The notes under the pieces: generated by a model
The model's input: the letters and a program-made list of their open reading frames with translations, nothing else
What the model was told of the DNA's origin: nothing
The model's database searches: none
Part shown: piece by piece, positions 1-42,535 of the stretch
How positions within the stretch are numbered: the stretch's first letter is position 1
Layout: every line of letters starts with the position of its first letter
Source of the DNA: Candidatus Bathyarchaeia archaeon
GTDB taxonomy: Archaea; Thermoproteota; Bathyarchaeia; Bathyarchaeales; Bathycorpusculaceae
NCBI GenBank assembly: GCA_038883855.1
Contig: JAVZLH010000006.1
Location: forward strand, 1 to 53,564
Length of the DNA stretch: 53,564 bases
Direction of reading: 5' to 3'
Program-made: the position numbers and the translations under genes

Positions 1-621
1 ATAGCCAAGGAAACTATTCGTCTCTTACCAAAAATATTCATAGCGCTCATAATCATTATTCTTACTTTTTTAGTAATTAAATTGCTGAACTTTTCCTTCA
101 GAAAACTACTTAAACTTGCAAAACTGGATGCCATGTTCAAACAGCTTTCTGGCTTTACTCTACCATTTTCAGTGGATAGTTTAATAATATTCTTAGCCGA
201 TTTAGGCGTGGCTTTAATAGCGCTTTATGGTTTGGTTAATCTCTTTTGGGGAGCGCAATATCTTCAACTAATGAATGAAGGTGTCTATTATGGCGCCCGT
301 GTTGTAAGCGTTGTAGCGATCGCGCTAGTAATTTTCGCAATTTTCAACGCGATCATTGGCAGAATTAAAGTTGAATCGAGACTTAGAAGCTACGCTATGC
401 TTATAGTTCTATTATTGATTACTGCCATGCTTATTGACATAACAGCGCTCAGCGATCCCGTAAAAAGCGCATTGACATTGGGGCTGTCGATTGGTGTAGG
501 AATAGCCATTGGCGTTTTTGCGATATGGTTCTTTTTCCACGAACACCTCGACAGAAGTTTCAAAATTGAAAGTGTTAAACCACATGAAGAAAACCAAAAA
601 AGTGGCGAGTATAAGCAATGA
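1..621 (+). CDS. Multi-pass membrane protein, CmpX/TM-helix-repeat-like; 5' end outside window
   Basis: Frame is open from base 1 (IAKETIRLLPKIFIALIII...). Several hydrophobic helices. Stop overlaps the next gene's ATG (ATGA 618-621). Confidence 0.7.
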   Translation: MAKETIRLLPKIFIALIIIILTFLVIKLLNFSFRKLLKLAKLDAMFKQLSGFTLPFSVDSLIIFLADLGVALIALYGLVNLFWGAQYLQLMNEGVYYGARVVSVVAIALVIFAIFNAIIGRIKVESRLRSYAMLIVLLLITAMLIDITALSDPVKSALTLGLSIGVGIAIGVFAIWFFFHEHLDRSFKIESVKPHEENQKSGEYKQ

Positions 622-1123
622 TCGAGATTGCTGGTATAAACATTATCCAGGTAGTTGAAGTAATTATCGCGCTTGTAGTCACATATATTATTGCGAAGAT
701 CATAGTTAGAACTCTAGAAAAAATTTTTGAAAAACACCGTTTCCTGAACAAATTGAAAAAGGAATCGTGAAAATTTCGAAATATACCGTCTACATCATCG
801 GATTTTTCGTGATAGTTTCTTTTTTCGGCTTTGACTTTTCATCAGTGATTGTGGGTTTAAGCGCCTTCAGCATCGCCATAAGCTTCGCAACAAGCACCAT
901 AATCCAAAACCTTGTTTCAGGAATACTAGTTCAAGCAGACAAAGCCTTTAAGATTGGAGATGAAATAAAAGTCCAAAATTTTGAAGGAAAAGTCGTAAAA
1001 ATAAGCATAAGAACAACAGTTCTCGAAACCAGCGAGGGACACACAATCTTCATACCTAACTCAATTTTCATAAACAACGCAGTCATAAGAAAAAACAAAG
1101 AAAACCAAAATACTTCAAACTAA
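618..1123 (+). CDS. mscS: Small-conductance mechanosensitive channel (MscS family), one frameshift at ~730-734
   Basis: ATG 618 gives MIEIAGINIIQVVEVIIALVV...IFEK. Adding one A in the A-run joins TPFPEQIEKGIVKISK to ORF 767-1123, which has MscS motifs (SFATSTIIQNLVSG, FKIGDEI, GKVVKISIRTT, IPNS). Confidence 0.8.
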
Positions 1124-1227
1124 ACCTAGTTCTAACACCCTAGCGTATTATAAAATCAAAATACCAAATCACCTAGCATTAGTGAAGAAGCAACTATAAA
1201 ACCAACTCATCTGTGTACAATTTAATT

Positions 1228-39827: not shown

Positions 39828-41336
39828 CTATAATCCAAGTTTTAGCCGCCTATAAGTGGTGTAGTCAACATACTCAAGGAAGCGATTTTCCGCTTGATAC
39901 TTGACAGTCATTTTTTGGCGTTTTCGCTTGTCAAGTATTTGGCTTGTTGTTATAAGCGAGTAAGCGTCGCTTCCCGCTCCAGAACCATAACTGACAATTA
40001 AAATGCGTTCTTCAGGCTTTGCTACATCCAAAACTGCAGCTAAACCCAGCGGCGAAGAACCTGAGTAAGTGTTGCCAAACTTGGCTACTTGAAGCGAAGG
40101 CAAATACTGCTCCTCCTTGAACCCAAGCTCCTTTGCGACCTTCACCGGAAACTGGACGTTAGGTTGGTGAGCAACGAAATAGTTGATATCGCTTGGTTTT
40201 AGGTTAAGTCTTTCCATCAATTTTCTGGCAGCCTTCTTTATATGTTTAAAATACGCTGGATCCCCAGTGAACCTTCCACCATGCATGGGATATGGCTCGC
40301 CGTCGCGGCGCCAAAAATCAGGCGTGTCGGAAGTGCAGGAGTACCAACCTTCAATTTCAGTTATAACATCATGCTTTCCGAAAATGTAGGCACACCCGCC
40401 GAAACCAACAAAGAGGTCAAGTTCTCCACCTGGACAGTCTCTGGGCGCTGCTTGTGAATTGTCTGCACCTATAACCATGGCGTATTGAATGTTTGATTTA
40501 GGATAGTTGACAAGCGACGCGGCGTCCTTAAACATGCTTGTCGCTGCCTTACATGCAAACTCTGTGTCTACAGCGTCAACGCCTTGTACATCTCCATCAG
40601 CCTCTCCAAGCCGCAAAACCTGTGCAACTTTTGAGGCTATAGGCTTGACGGCGTAAGGATTCGACTCTGAACCAGCGTAAACCTTACCTATAAGAGAGCA
40701 ATCGACTCCAGAGTGTATTAGCGCCAGTTTTCCAGCCTCAACGGCAGCGGTTATGGCGTCCTCATCTAGGAATGGAACTGAACGCTCTATTCCGCCTTCC
40801 CTTATCCTAAATCTCGAAGTATAGAAACCATAGCCAACAATTCCGGGAGTATCATACTCCTTATTCGGCTTGACAACGTTGTAGTTTTGATGCAGATAAA
40901 ACTCGTCTGCGAAAGTAAAAGTCAAAGAGATTGTTGGGATGACATCGCTTTTATCAACAGAATAACGTCTCCTAAATCTTGGAATGACCTCTCTTCCTTC
41001 TAGGGATGAAAAGTCAATTTGCTCGTCATTCGTTATTATTTTGTCAGTCAGCCTTCCAGGAACTCTTATTTTCCCGTTGTGAAAGGAGACTATTCCATAG
41101 ATGAAGCTGCCGAGTTTTCTGAACTTGTTTGTTGGTTCGCTGATTAGTGTGCATATTTCAAGCGTTCCTTTCTCATAGAAAAGGTCTATTTCAGCCATTT
41201 TTCCAAAGCTTTTCCTTCCGCATCGTCCACAGTAATCTCTAACTTCAAAATACTCTTTACCGCATAGTTGACAACGGCTTCCTCGAAGTCTGTCTCCGAG
41301 GTAGGAGACTCTTCTCTCTATTGGTTCGCTGCTCGT
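39828..41336 (-). CDS. DUF35 (Zn-ribbon+OB)-hydroxymethylglutaryl-CoA synthase fusion; inferred start ACG
   Basis: In-frame upstream RCQLCG...YCGRCG ribbon plus OB region, followed by HMGCS motifs GSES, EFACKAAT, DTPDFWRR, RFTG.PAY, HQPN, GNTYSGS, SYGSGAGSD. Confidence 0.88.
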   Translation of the reverse strand, partial: TSSEPIERRVSYLGDRLRGSRCQLCGKEYFEVRDYCGRCGRKSFGKMAEIDLFYEKGTLEICTLISEPTNKFRKLGSFIYGIVSFHNGKIRVPGRLTDKIITNDEQIDFSSLEGREVIPRFRRRYSVDKSDVIPTISLTFTFADEFYLHQNYNVVKPNKEYDTPGIVGYGFYTSRFRIREGGIERSVPFLDEDAITAAVEAGKLALIHSGVDCSLIGKVYAGSESNPYAVKPIASKVAQVLRLGEADGDVQGVDAVDTEFACKAATSMFKDAASLVNYPKSNIQYAMVIGADNSQAAPRDCPGGELDLFVGFGGCAYIFGKHDVITEIEGWYSCTSDTPDFWRRDGEPYPMHGGRFTGDPAYFKHIKKAARKLMERLNLKPSDINYFVAHQPNVQFPVKVAKELGFKEEQYLPSLQVAKFGNTYSGSSPLGLAAVLDVAKPEERILIVSYGSGAGSDAYSLITTSQILDKRKRQKMTVKYQAENRFLEYVDYTTYRRLKLGL

Positions 41337-41338
41337 TT

Positions 41339-42535
41339 CTAATCCCTCCCAAAAATATGGACGTAACCTTTTGTTCCAAAACCTTCAAGCTCCAGCACAC
41401 ACCCGTATTTCAGCTCACCGTCGCCTTTAACTTGCCGTTCTCCAGCTTCACCTCGAAGCTGTTTGAAAACCTCGAATGTTTGGGCGCCGCCAGTTGCACC
41501 TAGAGGATTCCCGTCGGCTTTTAATCCTCCATTCATGTTTACAAACAGTTTTTTTCCATCTATCTCGTAATAGCCTTTATAGTCCTCACAGCTTTCATAC
41601 ACGCTTAACCATGCTTTTCCACGCTGGCAGAAACCCAAATCCTCGAGAGATATCATCTCCATGACTGATGATTGATCATAAAGCTCAACAATCTGTATAT
41701 CCCACAGATTTATTCCAGCCGTTTTTAGGGCGTTTTTCATCGCCATTTTGCTTACGAGAAAATGCGTCAGGTTTTCCCTAGCTGGAAATGTTAAATAGTC
41801 TGTTGCTGAAGCGCTGCCAAGGATGTATACTGGCTTGTCTGTGAATTTTTCTGCATAGTCTTCGCTTGTGAGAATTACGACAGCTGCCCCGTCAGAAATT
41901 GGCGCATAATCATAAAGCCCGAGAGTTCTCCTAGCTTCTTTTCTTGCGTTTATAACTTGTTCCACAGTTATCTTTCGCCGATATTGGGCGTACTCGTTTT
42001 TTGTTGCGTTTAAATGGTTTTTGACGGGAATCTGGGCTAGAGCGATATAAAGTTTTTCAAGGTCTTCGCCGTTTATGCCGTACCGTTTTATGTAAGCCCT
42101 TAGCATAAGTTCATGATTTGCTTCTGGAGTGCACCCGGCATAATAGCTCCATGGATCTTCTAAAAGCATAAGGTCGTCGCGGATTTTATCCCAACGATCC
42201 GTCATTTTTTCTATTCCACCGACCAAAACAACATTGTATTTCCCAGCTAGGATGGCGTTGCAAGCGTTTAGAAGAGCTGAGCTGAAGGAGCGGGTTGCTT
42301 CCATTGGGACATGAAGTTCTGTGAGTTCTGAAAGGAAGCCTTCCTCTAACCCGAGCTTGTTTGTTATTGGGAGAAAATAGTCGGATAGGTAGCAGGCTTC
42401 AAGGTCTTTACGTTCTACATTCGCTTCTGCGGAAGCCTTAATCCAAGCCTCTTCGATAAGCTTTTCCGGTTCCTTCTCATAGTGTTCTCCGAACGCGGTT
42501 CTTCCAGCCGCAACTATTGTTGGGCGACCTTTCAT
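41339..42535 (-). CDS. Thiolase-fold protein (archaeal acetoacetyl-CoA thiolase-like), apparently catalytically inactive
   Basis: GRTAFGE, GGIEKM, KNHLNA..N.YAQ, APISDGAA, N.NGGLKA.G.PLGATG. Catalytic Cys/His positions are substituted. Confidence 0.85.
   Translation of the reverse strand: MKGRPTIVAAGRTAFGEHYEKEPEKLIEEAWIKASAEANVERKDLEACYLSDYFLPITNKLGLEEGFLSELTELHVPMEATRSFSSALLNACNAILAGKYNVVLVGGIEKMTDRWDKIRDDLMLLEDPWSYYAGCTPEANHELMLRAYIKRYGINGEDLEKLYIALAQIPVKNHLNATKNEYAQYRRKITVEQVINARKEARRTLGLYDYAPISDGAAVVILTSEDYAEKFTDKPVYILGSASATDYLTFPARENLTHFLVSKMAMKNALKTAGINLWDIQIVELYDQSSVMEMISLEDLGFCQRGKAWLSVYESCEDYKGYYEIDGKKLFVNMNGGLKADGNPLGATGGAQTFEVFKQLRGEAGERQVKGDGELKYGCVLELEGFGTKGYVHIFGRD

What the first reader, a model, noticed from the sequence alone, without database searches (positions are those of the whole stretch)
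39828..42535. Rewired mevalonate entry module: catalytically dead thiolase next to a DUF35-HMG-CoA synthase fusion
Established: archaeal acetoacetyl-CoA thiolase, HMGCS and a DUF35 protein usually form a three-component channelling complex. Seen: DUF35 (Zn ribbon + OB) is fused to the N-terminus of an HMGCS that keeps its catalytic Glu/Cys/His (GSES, FACK, HQPN). The thiolase keeps its fold motifs but has lost all three catalytic sites. The xACAS nucleophile loop reads MEATRSFSSA, HDxF reads YDQS, and GHP reads GNP. The rewritten Cys loop is too extensive to be base-call noise. Inference: the thiolase is a pseudoenzyme scaffold or CoA-binding regulator, and acetoacetyl-CoA comes from another thiolase. 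Alternatively, the complex condenses a different acyl-CoA.
Basis: partly seen in the sequence, partly recalled or inferred. Interest (0 to 1): 0.7.

Follow-up and report, generated by a model that had tools for sequence, protein, structure and literature searches.

The report
Dead thiolase partner of archaeal HMG-CoA synthase
In this hot-spring Bathyarchaeia genome, a working HMG-CoA synthase, the enzyme that starts membrane-lipid synthesis, is fused to its scaffold domain and sits beside a strongly conserved thiolase look-alike that has lost every thiolase catalytic residue, so this copy probably acts as a structural partner and not as an enzyme.

Summary
The 398-aa thiolase-fold gene (41339-42535, minus strand) has Arg where the nucleophilic Cys should be. 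HDCF has become YDQS and GHP has become GNP. The next gene is a DUF35::HMG-CoA synthase fusion that keeps the Glu/Cys/His/Asn tetrad.

This is not decay or error. The changed residues are invariant in 120 of 120 close homologues. In 32 of 151 Bathyarchaeia genomes sampled, an orthologue sits directly beside the fusion.

In a tree, the Cys-less clade nests inside fusion-associated thiolases whose basal members still carry Cys/His/His. It sits on a long stem with short branches after it.

The window's genome also holds an intact archaeal thiolase with its own DUF35, and a type II thiolase. However, 2 of 5 high-quality relatives examined closely showed no other thiolase.

A complex model supports binding through the DUF35 domain, but a similar complex is already solved, so the pass may reflect memory.

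Best reading (about 0.55): a non-catalytic structural subunit of the thiolase/HMGCS/DUF35 complex, with acetoacetyl-CoA made elsewhere. New chemistry in the rebuilt pocket is not excluded.

My literature searches found no report of this. Earlier agents in this scan noted the same arrangement in other Bathyarchaeia and Asgard genomes.

Side finding: in this population the fusion's conserved start codon reads ACG.

The parts
41339..42535 (-). Thiolase-fold gene (398 aa) without thiolase catalytic residues; stop codon TAG at 41339-41341
   Evidence: AlphaFold2 model has mean pLDDT 93.9. Best fold match is 6esq_A, TM 0.91 at 33% identity. It scores under the NCBIfam cut-offs: NF004720 286.6 against 420, NF053570 244.2 against 600.
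42272..42304 (-). Former nucleophile loop, residues 78-88 MEATRSFSSAL; Arg82 sits where thiolases have the acyl-accepting Cys
   Evidence: Alignment to 6esq_A. Arg is invariant in 120 of 120 homologues and in 16 of 16 loci read.
42107..42130 (-). TPEANHEL (residues 136-143), replacing TFPGLYAL of intact thiolases; lies in the predicted DUF35 interface
   Evidence: Interface residues 127-136, 138-139 and 142-143.
41669..41680 (-). YDQS (residues 286-289), replacing the HDCF motif
   Evidence: Reads CDPS in the most distant orthologue, G037.
41504..41512 (-). GNP (residues 342-344), replacing GHP
   Evidence: 120 of 120. Reads GSP in G037.
41369..41395 (-). LELEGFGTK (residues 381-389), replacing the C-terminal HNVGGSGA loop of intact archaeal thiolases
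41343..41350 (-). GGGAGGGA, a Shine-Dalgarno-like run inside the end of the thiolase-like gene, 6 nt upstream of the fusion's start position
   Evidence: A similar purine-rich run is present in most of the 13 relatives read.
39828..41336 (-). DUF35::HMG-CoA synthase fusion, 502 codons counted from ACG at 41334-41336. Gene callers start it at ATG 41196-41198 (456 aa). Stop codon at 39828-39830.
41220..41273 (-). Zinc-ribbon cysteines Cys22, Cys25, Cys36 and Cys39 of the DUF35 domain, upstream of the annotated ATG
   Evidence: zf-ChsH2 at 22.1 bits. 6esq_E at E 7.1e-7.
40887..41219 (-). Rest of the DUF35 domain (OB-like part, to about residue 150). It holds most of the predicted contacts with the thiolase-like protein (residues 60-72, 78-82, 91-95, 105-113, 124-125, 134-139).
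39831..40850 (-). HMG-CoA synthase domain with Glu224 (40665-40667), Cys262 (40551-40553), His390 (40167-40169) and Asn422 (40071-40073)
   Evidence: NF003274 at 381.5 bits against 244. Alignment to 6esq_I. All four residues are invariant in 20 of 20 aligned fusions.

Best explanation
[quoted passage not shown] Here the scaffold domain (DUF35) is fused to the N-terminus of an active HMG-CoA synthase, and the thiolase subunit has become a non-catalytic structural partner. Shown: the subunit keeps the thiolase fold, has no thiolase catalytic residues, is under strong purifying selection, and is always encoded directly upstream of the fusion. Inferred: it still docks on the DUF35 domain and helps build the oligomer and the CoA-binding chamber that HMGCS uses. 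Also inferred: HMGCS alone does the chemistry (acetyl-CoA plus acetoacetyl-CoA gives HMG-CoA), and acetoacetyl-CoA is made by separately encoded thiolases. In this genome those are the intact archaeal-type thiolase with its own DUF35 on contig C11 and/or the type II thiolase on contig C4. Historically, a thiolase plus DUF35::HMGCS module with an active thiolase came first, and that form is still present in other Bathyarchaeia families. The thiolase then lost its active site once, on the stem of the window's order.
For: (1) Residue loss. Cys to Arg82, HDCF to YDQS and GHP to GNP against 6esq_A. PMC12960953 (sections read) reports that H284A in the archaeal ACAT abolishes HMG-CoA formation, and that H294Y in a bacterial ACAT nearly abolishes thiolysis.
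(2) Selection. The 120 closest homologues are 83-100% identical, and Arg82, Tyr286, Asp287, Gln288, Ser289 and GNP are invariant in them. The same motifs appear in 16 of 16 loci read, down to 57% identity.
(3) Linkage. In a sample of 151 Bathyarchaeia genomes, 32 have an orthologue of at least 57% identity. The same 32 have the full-length fusion at 65% identity or more, directly adjacent on the same strand.
(4) Evolutionary rate. Across the same genomes the Cys-less protein is only slightly less conserved than its partner or the intact paralogue. Against G008, G090 and G056 it is 84, 70 and 64% identical. The fusion is 87, 71 and 75% and the C11-type thiolase is 85, 75 and 71%.
(5) History. 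In the tree, fusion-associated thiolases form one clade (SH-aLRT 100). G003, G006, G108 and G060 keep C/H/H, and the Cys-less clade (support 100) nests inside on a stem of 0.71 changes per site, followed by short branches.
(6) Other thiolases. The own genome has an intact thiolase (CASS, HDCF, GHP) plus a 133-aa DUF35 on C11 and a type II thiolase on C4. C11-type orthologues of at least 68% identity occur in 60 of 81 genomes of the order, or 62 counting two cut at contig ends.
(7) Binding. The complex model scores ipSAE 0.84 (median of three runs) against a best control of 0.00. That mark was reached by 116 of 157 solved complexes and 2 of 215 mismatched pairs. The runs agree in at least 97% of contacts and the partner's pLDDT is at least 92. 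Contacts run from the DUF35 part of the fusion to residues 116-150, 201-204 and 251-256 of the thiolase-like protein. A like complex (6ESQ) is solved, so this pass may come from memory. It shows likeness, not that this copy binds.
(8) Precedent. Bacterial HMGS/ACAT/DUF35 complexes keep a catalytically dead subunit (there the HMGS) that is still required for activity (PMC12960953).
Against: G082 (95% complete, 20 contigs) and G026 (97% complete) have the module and an HMG-CoA reductase. No other thiolase was found in them with NF004720, TIGR01930 or PF22691. They also show no second KAS III-like enzyme and no strong 3-hydroxyacyl-CoA dehydrogenase hit. If that absence is real, something in this module must supply acetoacetyl-CoA.
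The active-site loops were not simply degraded. They were rewritten into new motifs that stay conserved (TR-SFSS, TPEANHEL, E-x-EGFGTK) down to 57% identity, which would also fit a new ligand site.
The His-to-Tyr change is the one seen in the thiolase-fold aldolases Ltp2, Sal and TbSLP (PMC12329534).
Predicted interface residues are not more conserved than the rest of the protein: 0.68 against 0.65 identity in the four most distant orthologues, Mann-Whitney p 0.55.
The complex model showed contacts with the DUF35 part only, so the claimed role at the HMGCS CoA site rests on analogy with 6ESQ (recalled, and as described in PMC12960953).
No model coordinates were available, so the pocket could not be inspected.
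Confidence: 0.55

Rival explanations
1. Neofunctionalised enzyme. The rebuilt pocket (Arg82, Tyr286, Gln288, Asn343, Glu382, Glu384, His141) catalyses a different reaction on a CoA thioester while docked to DUF35::HMGCS. Candidates are a Tyr-based aldol or retro-aldol reaction as in Ltp2/Sal, or decarboxylation of malonyl-CoA as reported at a low rate for TbSLP.
For: In Ltp2 (YDHF), Sal (YDCY) and TbSLP (YDCF), the His of HDCF is replaced by a Tyr, and in Ltp2 and Sal that Tyr is the catalytic base. All are thiolase-fold proteins, and Ltp2 and Sal work with a DUF35 domain (PMC12329534, passages read). The window has Tyr at that position. The rewritten loops are invariant in 120 of 120 close homologues. 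The long stem followed by slow change fits a shift to a new optimum. The model also matches TbSLP (5ab7, TM 0.84) and Ltp2 (6ok1_C, TM 0.80), below 6esq_A.
Against: In the most distant orthologue, G037, the Tyr is Cys and the Asn is Ser (CDPS, GSP), so these two positions are not held across the whole clade. The second catalytic residue of the aldolases (Cys in YDC of Sal, Tyr344 in Ltp2) has no counterpart that I could place. The window has Gln at the YD-x position, and in Sal the variants tested at that position (Cys to Ala, Ser or His) abolished activity. No hydratase or other new pathway gene travels with the pair. The closest structure by far is the bona fide complex thiolase.
Confidence: 0.2
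2. The pair still makes HMG-CoA from acetyl-CoA without a classical thiolase. The Cys-less subunit would bind and activate the second acetyl-CoA (or malonyl-CoA), and the Claisen step would use the Cys of HMGCS or a non-covalent mechanism.
For: G082 and G026 (95% and 97% complete) carry the module and HMG-CoA reductase but no other thiolase or KAS III-like gene was found. Nucleophile loss in HMGCS-operon thiolases recurs elsewhere. Cys is Gly in 2 Methanomassiliicoccales-type loci and in 1 Halobacteriales MAG, out of 80 loci read. Earlier notes of this scan report Asgard genera with no other thiolase (unchecked here).
Against: I know of no precedent for a Claisen condensation by a thiolase fold that lacks both the nucleophile and the two His. 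H284A alone kills HMG-CoA formation in the archaeal complex (PMC12960953). Most genomes with the module do have another thiolase. Absence in 95-97% complete MAGs is not proof of absence.
Confidence: 0.1
3. Decaying pseudogene, or sequencing or assembly error.
For: None beyond the loss of the motifs and the sub-threshold family scores.
Against: The frame is open. 120 of 120 homologues share the changes. Orthologues were found in 32 of 151 genomes. Contigs from runs of a second study match the stretch laid, which covers the end of this gene and the start of the next, apart from two single-letter differences at 41471 and 41622. The fold model is confident, pLDDT 93.9.
Confidence: 0.01

Closest known systems
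[quoted passage not shown] 2018, PNAS. The paper is not held; it is known to me from recall and from its description in PMC12960953.)
   Same: The same three modules are present. The best sequence matches are to its chains: thiolase 6esq_A at 1e-49, HMGCS 6esq_I at 8.8e-81 and DUF35 6esq_E at 7.1e-7. The best fold match is 6esq_A at TM 0.91. The HMGCS tetrad is kept. The predicted contact between thiolase and DUF35 is as expected for this family.
   Different: The thiolase subunit lacks Cys, His and His, and all four active-site loops are rewritten. DUF35 is fused to the N-terminus of HMGCS. The gene order is thiolase then DUF35::HMGCS, instead of the HMGCS, thiolase, DUF35 order seen in most of 80 other archaeal and bacterial loci and in G007 and G013. 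Channelling of acetoacetyl-CoA from the neighbouring active site is therefore not possible in the classical way.
Bacterial HMGS/ACAT/DUF35 complexes: PhlABC, MucABC and Pseudomonas fluorescens PfACAT/HMGS-DUF35 (Liao et al. 2026, PMC12960953; sections 9 and 10 read)
   Same: These have the same tripartite architecture, with one catalytically dead subunit kept as a required partner. A fusion of HMGS and DUF35 exists in P. fluorescens.
   Different: It is the mirror image. In the bacterial complexes the HMGS has lost its E-C-H-N tetrad and the ACAT is the active subunit. Here the ACAT-like subunit is dead and the HMGS is intact. The paper names the bacterial fusion HMGS-DUF35, whereas here DUF35 is N-terminal. 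The bacterial complexes no longer make HMG-CoA. This one most likely still does.
Thiolase-fold proteins without the nucleophilic Cys that pair with DUF35 or bind CoA esters: steroid aldolases Ltp2-ChsH2(DUF35) and Sal-Shy(DUF35), and the trypanosomal SCP2-thiolase-like protein TbSLP (PMC12329534; passages read)
   Same: They have the SCP2-type thiolase fold, no classical thiolase chemistry, and Tyr in place of the His of HDCF. Ltp2 and Sal have a DUF35 partner.
   Different: They are much more distant: 6ok1_A at E 2.1e-10 and the SLP chains at 1e-11 to 1e-15. Their second catalytic residue is not matched. There is no hydratase partner or steroid pathway here. The Tyr is not kept in G037.
Ketothiolase/DUF35 pairs of the archaeal fatty-acid synthase complex (Schmerling et al., bioRxiv 10.1101/2024.07.05.601840; abstract and one passage read)
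   Same: The intact thiolase plus stand-alone DUF35 pair on contig C11 has this two-gene form. It also occurs in relatives that lack the HMGCS module (G014, G044, G050).
   Different: No reductase or dehydratase gene lies beside the C11 pair in the 4 kb read. Whether the pair serves mevalonate or fatty-acid metabolism was not tested.

Membership tests
Archaeal acetoacetyl-CoA thiolase (SCP2-type; NCBIfam NF053570 / NF004720) | Thiolase fold (five-layer alpha-beta-alpha-beta-alpha) | tested here: met
   Pfam Thiolase_N and Thiolase_C_1. Model pLDDT 93.9. TM 0.91 to 6esq_A.
Archaeal acetoacetyl-CoA thiolase (SCP2-type; NCBIfam NF053570 / NF004720) | Score over the curated family cut-off | tested here: not met
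   NF004720 at 286.6 against 420 bits; NF053570 at 244.2 against 600 bits. The paralogue on C11 scores 522.9 bits, over the cut-off.
Archaeal acetoacetyl-CoA thiolase (SCP2-type; NCBIfam NF053570 / NF004720) | Nucleophilic Cys in the CxS loop | tested here: not met
   Arg82 aligns with the Cys of 6esq_A. No Cys is present in the loop in 16 of 16 orthologue loci, except that G037 has a Cys one position later.
Archaeal acetoacetyl-CoA thiolase (SCP2-type; NCBIfam NF053570 / NF004720) | His of the HDxF motif | tested here: not met
   YDQS. The motif names are from PMC12960953.
Archaeal acetoacetyl-CoA thiolase (SCP2-type; NCBIfam NF053570 / NF004720) | His of the GHx motif | tested here: not met
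   GNP in 120 of 120 homologues.
Archaeal acetoacetyl-CoA thiolase (SCP2-type; NCBIfam NF053570 / NF004720) | Thiolase activity (2 acetyl-CoA to and from acetoacetyl-CoA plus CoA) | not testable with these tools
   Needs an enzyme assay.
Subunit of a thiolase/HMGCS/DUF35 complex | Encoded beside HMGCS and DUF35 | tested here: met
   There are 2 nt between its stop codon and the fusion's start position. It is adjacent in 32 of 32 genomes that have the orthologue.
Subunit of a thiolase/HMGCS/DUF35 complex | Binds the DUF35 scaffold | tested here: inconclusive
   The model supports binding: 0.84 against a best control of 0.00. The mark was reached by 116 of 157 solved complexes and 2 of 215 mismatched pairs, contact agreement was at least 97%, and partner pLDDT was at least 92. 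A like complex is solved, so the pass may come from memory.
HMG-CoA synthase, archaeal type (NF003274 / TIGR00748) | Score over the curated cut-off | tested here: met
   NF003274 at 381.5 against 244 bits. TIGR00748 at 342 bits is just under its cut-off of 353.35. The match begins at profile position 41 because the segment after the first strand is shortened.
HMG-CoA synthase, archaeal type (NF003274 / TIGR00748) | Glu-Cys-His-Asn catalytic tetrad | tested here: met
   Glu224, Cys262, His390 and Asn422 align with E82, C114, H238 and N270 of 6esq_I. They are invariant in 20 of 20 fusions.
DUF35 (zf-ChsH2 plus OB_ChsH2_C) | Four-Cys rubredoxin-like zinc ribbon | tested here: met
   C22-x2-C25-x10-C36-x2-C39, read from the ACG position. 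PF12172 scores 22.1 against 23.2 bits.
DUF35 (zf-ChsH2 plus OB_ChsH2_C) | C-terminal OB fold | tested here: inconclusive
   There is no PF01796 hit. 6esq_E matches residues 17-89 at E 7.1e-7. The fusion was folded only inside the complex job, where the non-partner chain had pLDDT 91.
Thiolase-fold aldolases (Ltp2 / Sal) | Catalytic Tyr at the first position of YDxF/Y | tested here: inconclusive
   Tyr286 is present and invariant in 120 of 120 homologues, but it is Cys in G037.
Thiolase-fold aldolases (Ltp2 / Sal) | Second catalytic residue (Cys of YDC in Sal; Tyr344 in Ltp2) | tested here: not met
   The window has Gln at the YD-x position. The Ltp2 Tyr344 equivalent could not be placed, because no residue-level alignment to 6ok1 was obtained.

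The most novel reading that the evidence does not exclude
The Cys-less subunit is not inert. Together with the HMGCS it is docked to, it provides a thiolase-independent entry into the mevalonate pathway. For example, it could bind and activate or decarboxylate a second acyl-CoA in its rebuilt Arg/Glu/Tyr pocket so that HMG-CoA is made without free acetoacetyl-CoA. This would explain why some near-complete Bathyarchaeia genomes (G082, G026) have no other thiolase, and perhaps also the Cys-less HMGCS-operon thiolases seen in Methanomassiliicoccales-type genomes.
Probability: 0.12. Interest if true: 0.85.

Novelty: new variant of a known kind. Interest (0 to 1): 0.6.

Why it matters
All archaea need the mevalonate pathway for their membrane lipids. 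The thiolase step is thermodynamically uphill, and the solved archaeal complex is thought to overcome this by handing acetoacetyl-CoA directly to HMGCS. Here a whole order of Bathyarchaeia keeps the complex but has switched off the thiolase half. Either channelling is dispensable when other thiolases are present, and the subunit is kept only because HMGCS needs it structurally, or the entry chemistry is different from the textbook. Both readings can be tested with two recombinant proteins. The case is also the natural mirror image of the bacterial complexes described in 2026, where HMGS is the dead partner. Practically, these genes are annotated 'acetyl-CoA C-acetyltransferase' in public records (source names), so metabolic reconstructions of Bathyarchaeia credit them with an activity they almost certainly lack.

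Tried and rejected
1. Frameshift or read-through fusion of the thiolase-like gene with DUF35. The frame upstream of the ATG reads ...PYFWEGLE..., which looked to me like a DUF35 N-terminus overlapping the thiolase gene's 3' end. Rejected: relatives start at M/V-SSEPIERR, 16 codons after the upstream stop.

2. Base-call or assembly error at the ACG. Contigs of runs X3 and X4 (a second study) cover 41334-41336 and show no difference there. X1 and X2 may be the source of the window.

3. Test for stronger conservation of the predicted interface. No difference was found (0.68 against 0.65, p 0.55), so it neither helps nor hurts.

4. Other sources of acetoacetyl-CoA in five genomes. PF08541 found only the HMGCS itself in 5 of 5. 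PF02737 gave a strong hit only in G020.

5. HMG-CoA reductase (PF00368). Not found in the window's own genome, which is 85% complete. Found in G082 and G026. No conclusion can be drawn for G000.

No Cys is conserved across the clade near the four loops.

A single protein was used instead.

8. Vogeli et al. 2018 (PMC5879682) is not held.

9. Literature. Searches (terms DUF35, HMG-CoA synthase, thiolase, archaea, Bathyarchaeota, mevalonate, pseudoenzyme, fused CoA-binding site) listed no paper describing an archaeal HMGCS complex with a dead thiolase. Supplements of the papers read were not opened.

10. One search's count of Cys-less representatives (about 46 of 130 aligned rows) depends on a loop alignment that can slip by one residue. 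I use it only as 'roughly a third'.

Full report
WHAT IS THERE. The region holds two minus-strand genes separated by 2 nt. The upstream gene (41339-42535, 398 aa) is a thiolase-fold protein. Pfam finds Thiolase_C_1 at 1.3e-27 and Thiolase_N at 5.5e-11. NCBIfam's archaeal thiolase models match end to end but far under their cut-offs: NF004720 at 286.6 against 420 bits, and NF053570 at 244.2 against 600 bits. Its best solved relative is the thiolase chain of the Methanothermococcus thermolithotrophicus thiolase/HMGCS/DUF35 complex, 6esq_A, at E 1e-49. An AlphaFold2 model built on 56 sequences is confident (mean pLDDT 93.9, pTM 0.94) and superposes best on the same chain (TM 0.91, 33% identity).

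In the HMMER alignment to 6esq_A, Arg82 lies on the nucleophilic Cys (ATRSFSS on AACASGS). Tyr286 lies on the His of HDCF (YDQS). Asn343 lies on the His of the GHx motif (GNP). Alignment to the intact paralogue of the same genome shows two more rewritten loops. TFPGLYAL has become TPEANHEL, and HNVGGSGA has become LELEGFGTK.

THE FUSION AND ITS START CODON. The downstream ORF, as called from ATG (39828-41198, 456 aa), is an HMG-CoA synthase with about 117 extra N-terminal residues. NF003274 scores 381.5 bits against a cut-off of 244. The frame stays open upstream to 41384. The 120 best homologues are nearly all 502 aa and begin M/V-SSEPIERR...C-x2-C-x10-C-x2-C. In the window the corresponding codon (41334-41336) is ACG. 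All 13 relatives whose DNA I read have ATG (11) or TTG (2) there, mostly behind a similar GGGAGGGA-like run. A genome of the same genus has ATG.

The ACG is not an assembly slip. Contigs of two runs from a second study cover the site and show no difference there. The only other protein in the list called at 456 aa is a 97% identical one (P0351).

The 45 codons between ACG and the ATG differ from G082 and G008 by 18 and 17 synonymous changes against 7 and 5 non-synonymous changes. That is the same proportion as in the rest of the gene (172:69 and 196:61). This fits continued translation from the ACG position. It is weak evidence, because most of that divergence may predate the mutation.

Read from ACG, the N-terminal 150 residues carry the four-Cys ribbon. 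They match the DUF35 chain of 6ESQ (6esq_E, E 7.1e-7) and Pfam zf-ChsH2 just under its threshold (22.1 against 23.2 bits). The HMGCS part aligns to 6esq_I (E 8.8e-81) and keeps Glu224, Cys262, His390 and Asn422, which align with E82, C114, H238 and N270. Liao et al. mutated this tetrad to inactivate the archaeal enzyme (PMC12960953, section 10). These four residues are invariant in 20 of 20 aligned fusions. It is the only HMGCS found in the genome.

NOT DECAY: CONSERVATION AND DISTRIBUTION. The 120 closest proteins in the 5.8-billion-protein collection are 83-100% identical and come from Bathyarchaeia MAGs, with source names such as 'Bathycorpusculaceae'. Arg82, Tyr286, Asp287, Gln288, Ser289 and GNP are invariant in all 120.

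In a sample of 151 Bathyarchaeia genomes, 32 have an orthologue of at least 57% identity. These are 15 of 15 in the window's family, all sampled genomes of four further families of its order, 3 of 6 in another family, and one genome outside the order. The same 32 have a full-length fusion of at least 65% identity directly adjacent on the same strand. All 16 loci whose sequence I read carry the rewritten motifs. The single variation is in the most distant one (G037, 57% identity), which reads CDPS and GSP instead of YDQS and GNP.

Across the same genomes the Cys-less protein is only a little less conserved than the fusion or the intact paralogue. For example, it is 84, 70 and 64% identical in G008, G090 and G056. 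The fusion is 87, 71 and 75% and the C11-type thiolase is 85, 75 and 71%. In the 50%-identity representative library, the next full-length relative outside this group is only 43% identical.

HOW IT AROSE. Six further Bathyarchaeia genomes from other families have a more distant version of the same two-gene module, with fusions 44-54% identical. I read these loci. In G003, G006, G108 and G060 the partner thiolase keeps Cys, HDCF and GHP. G081's copy is cut by withheld bases (X in the translation) but keeps HDCF and GHP. G004's copy has lost the Cys (with a deletion) but keeps both His, and that genome also has a complete canonical thiolase, HMGCS, DUF35 set elsewhere (L028).

In G003 the fusion is followed by an ORF that I read as HMG-CoA reductase from its sequence, without a family search. 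This ties the module to the mevalonate pathway.

A maximum-likelihood tree (IQ-TREE, quick mode, 56 rows) puts all fusion-associated thiolases in one clade (SH-aLRT 100), with G003 basal. The Cys-less proteins form a nested clade (support 100) on a stem of 0.71 changes per site, followed by short branches.

So the likely order of events is as follows. First came rearrangement and fusion of DUF35 to HMGCS while the thiolase was still active. Then came a single burst that rewrote the thiolase active site on the stem of the window's order. Purifying selection followed. Other Bathyarchaeia (G007, G013) keep the classical HMGCS, thiolase, DUF35 order with an intact thiolase, as do most of 80 loci from other archaea and some bacteria.

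WHERE COULD ACETOACETYL-CoA COME FROM? The window's genome (1.11 Mb, 85% complete) has two other thiolases. One is an archaeal-type enzyme with CASS, HDCF and GHP that scores over the NF004720 cut-off (522.9 bits). It is followed by a stand-alone 133-aa DUF35 with clear Pfam hits on contig C11. The other is a 399-aa type II thiolase on contig C4.

C11-type orthologues of at least 68% identity occur in 60 of 81 genomes of the order, or 62 counting two cut at contig ends. They also occur in genomes that lack the HMGCS module (G014, G044, G050), so this pair is not dedicated to HMGCS.

In 81 genomes searched with PF22691 (80 of them at least 90% complete), five showed nothing stronger than the Cys-less paralogue itself: G082, G114, G026, G020 and G205. 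G114 and G020 have a type II thiolase instead. G205 was not checked further.

G082 (95% complete, 20 contigs) and G026 (97% complete) showed no other thiolase with any of three families. They showed no second KAS III-like gene and no convincing 3-hydroxyacyl-CoA dehydrogenase, yet both have HMG-CoA reductase.

So 'another thiolase supplies the substrate' is plausible for this genome and for most of the clade. It is not established for all of it.

DOES IT STILL BELONG TO THE COMPLEX? A two-chain model (fusion read from ACG, 20-row alignment; thiolase-like protein, 55-row alignment) scored ipSAE 0.84 (median of three runs) against a best control of 0.00. That mark was reached by 116 of 157 solved complexes and 2 of 215 mismatched pairs. 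The runs agree in at least 97% of contacts, and the partner's pLDDT is at least 92. The contacts join the DUF35 part of the fusion (residues 10-139) to residues 116-150, 201-204 and 251-256 of the thiolase-like protein. That region includes the rewritten TPEANHEL stretch.

Because the homologous complex 6ESQ is solved, this pass may reflect memory of that structure. It shows that the interface is still recognisable, not that the proteins bind. The predicted interface is not more conserved than the rest of the protein. No contact with the HMGCS domain was reported in the 1:1 model.

INTERPRETATION. The most economical reading is a pseudoenzyme kept for architecture. The published bacterial relatives of this complex show that a catalytically dead subunit can remain indispensable. 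[quoted passage not shown] Here the roles are reversed. I put this reading at about 0.55.

The main rival, at about 0.2, is that the rebuilt and conserved polar pocket does new chemistry. The His-to-Tyr change is the one that creates the catalytic base in the thiolase-fold aldolases Ltp2 and Sal, which also work with DUF35 domains, and it is also seen in TbSLP (PMC12329534). Against this, G037 has Cys and Ser at the two former His positions. The aldolases' second catalytic residue is not matched. No new pathway genes accompany the pair.

A bolder possibility, at about 0.1, is that the pair makes HMG-CoA without a classical thiolase, prompted by G082 and G026. Decay or error is excluded.

WIDER CONTEXT. 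Loss of the nucleophile in HMGCS-operon thiolases is not unique to this clade. Among 80 loci from other lineages, 76 keep Cys/His/His. One further locus (L084) has the Cys, but my pattern mis-read its HDxF position. Three lack the Cys (Cys to Gly): a Methanomethylophilaceae MAG, a Methanomassiliicoccaceae MAG and a Halobacteriales MAG. All three have an HMGCS-like ORF, recognised by motif patterns only, just upstream. These three keep part of the His set. Roughly a third of the nearest 50%-identity cluster representatives lack Cys at the aligned column (the alignment is approximate there).

Earlier agents of this scan reported the same Cys-less-thiolase plus DUF35::HMGCS arrangement in other Bathyarchaeia genomes, and comparable cases in Asgard archaea. 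Those are unchecked AI notes. I re-derived the Bathyarchaeia case independently here, and I only partly checked the claim about Thermoplasmatota. Four literature searches listed no paper describing an archaeal complex with a dead thiolase.

VERDICT. The feature is real and conserved, and by my searches it is unpublished. It is a new variant of a known complex, not a new kind of system. Its mechanism is inferred, not shown. The open question it raises is testable with two recombinant proteins: what the dead subunit is for, and where acetoacetyl-CoA comes from in genomes without another thiolase.

Noticed in passing
window 41334-41336 (minus strand): The conserved start codon of the DUF35::HMGCS fusion reads ACG. 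Of 13 relatives read, 11 have ATG and 2 have TTG, and a same-genus genome (G213) has ATG. Contigs of runs from a second study show the same letters. Gene callers therefore start at Met47 and cut off the zinc ribbon. The synonymous to non-synonymous ratio of the 45 upstream codons is like that of the rest of the gene, which suggests initiation at ACG.
   Followed up: partly
G000 contig C11: L001 1495-2667 (-) and 1090-1491 (-): An intact archaeal-type thiolase (CASS, HDCF, GHP; 522.9 bits on NF004720) is followed by a stand-alone 133-aa DUF35, with no HMGCS nearby. Orthologues occur in 60 of 81 genomes of the order, including genomes without the HMGCS module. The pair may therefore serve another pathway, such as the archaeal fatty-acid synthase type.
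   Followed up: partly
G000 contig C4: L003 1405-2604 (+), with 15-1181 (+) upstream: A bacterial-like type II thiolase (399 aa, with Cys, His and Cys motifs visible) lies downstream of a Cys-rich protein that looked to me like a CCG-domain iron-sulfur protein. That label comes from reading the sequence, not from a search.
   Followed up: no
L049 3283-4437; L067 3501-4655; L109 3501-4658: HMGCS-adjacent thiolases of a Methanomethylophilaceae MAG, a Methanomassiliicoccaceae MAG and a Halobacteriales MAG have Gly in place of the nucleophilic Cys (IEAAGASG / VEAAGASG). They have also partly lost the His residues (GDP, GNP, SDGY). The other 77 of 80 loci have the Cys.
   Followed up: partly
L022 (G004:C2:186000-191500) and L028 (G004:C2:147000-151500): One genome carries both a fusion-type module whose thiolase has lost the Cys by a deletion but keeps both His, and a complete canonical thiolase, HMGCS, DUF35 set 38 kb away. 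It may be a snapshot of the redundancy that allows the loss.
   Followed up: partly
L019-L023 fusion N-termini (alignment A2, columns 20-45): In the fusions that pair with an intact or partly intact thiolase (G006, G108, G060, G081, G004), the second CxxC of the zinc ribbon is replaced (C-D/N/E-x-E/D-G), leaving three Cys. The fusions paired with the fully Cys-less thiolase keep all four, as does G003.
   Followed up: no
Bathyarchaeia genome sample: 48 of 151 genomes, including all sampled members of several families and three near-complete genomes of the window's own order (G014, G044, G050), gave no HMGCS match at E <= 1e-40 with the fusion as query. I did not check whether they have a divergent HMGCS or none.
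   Followed up: no
G000 whole genome: No HMG-CoA reductase (PF00368) was found in the window's own genome, which is 85% complete. G082 and G026 have one.
   Followed up: no
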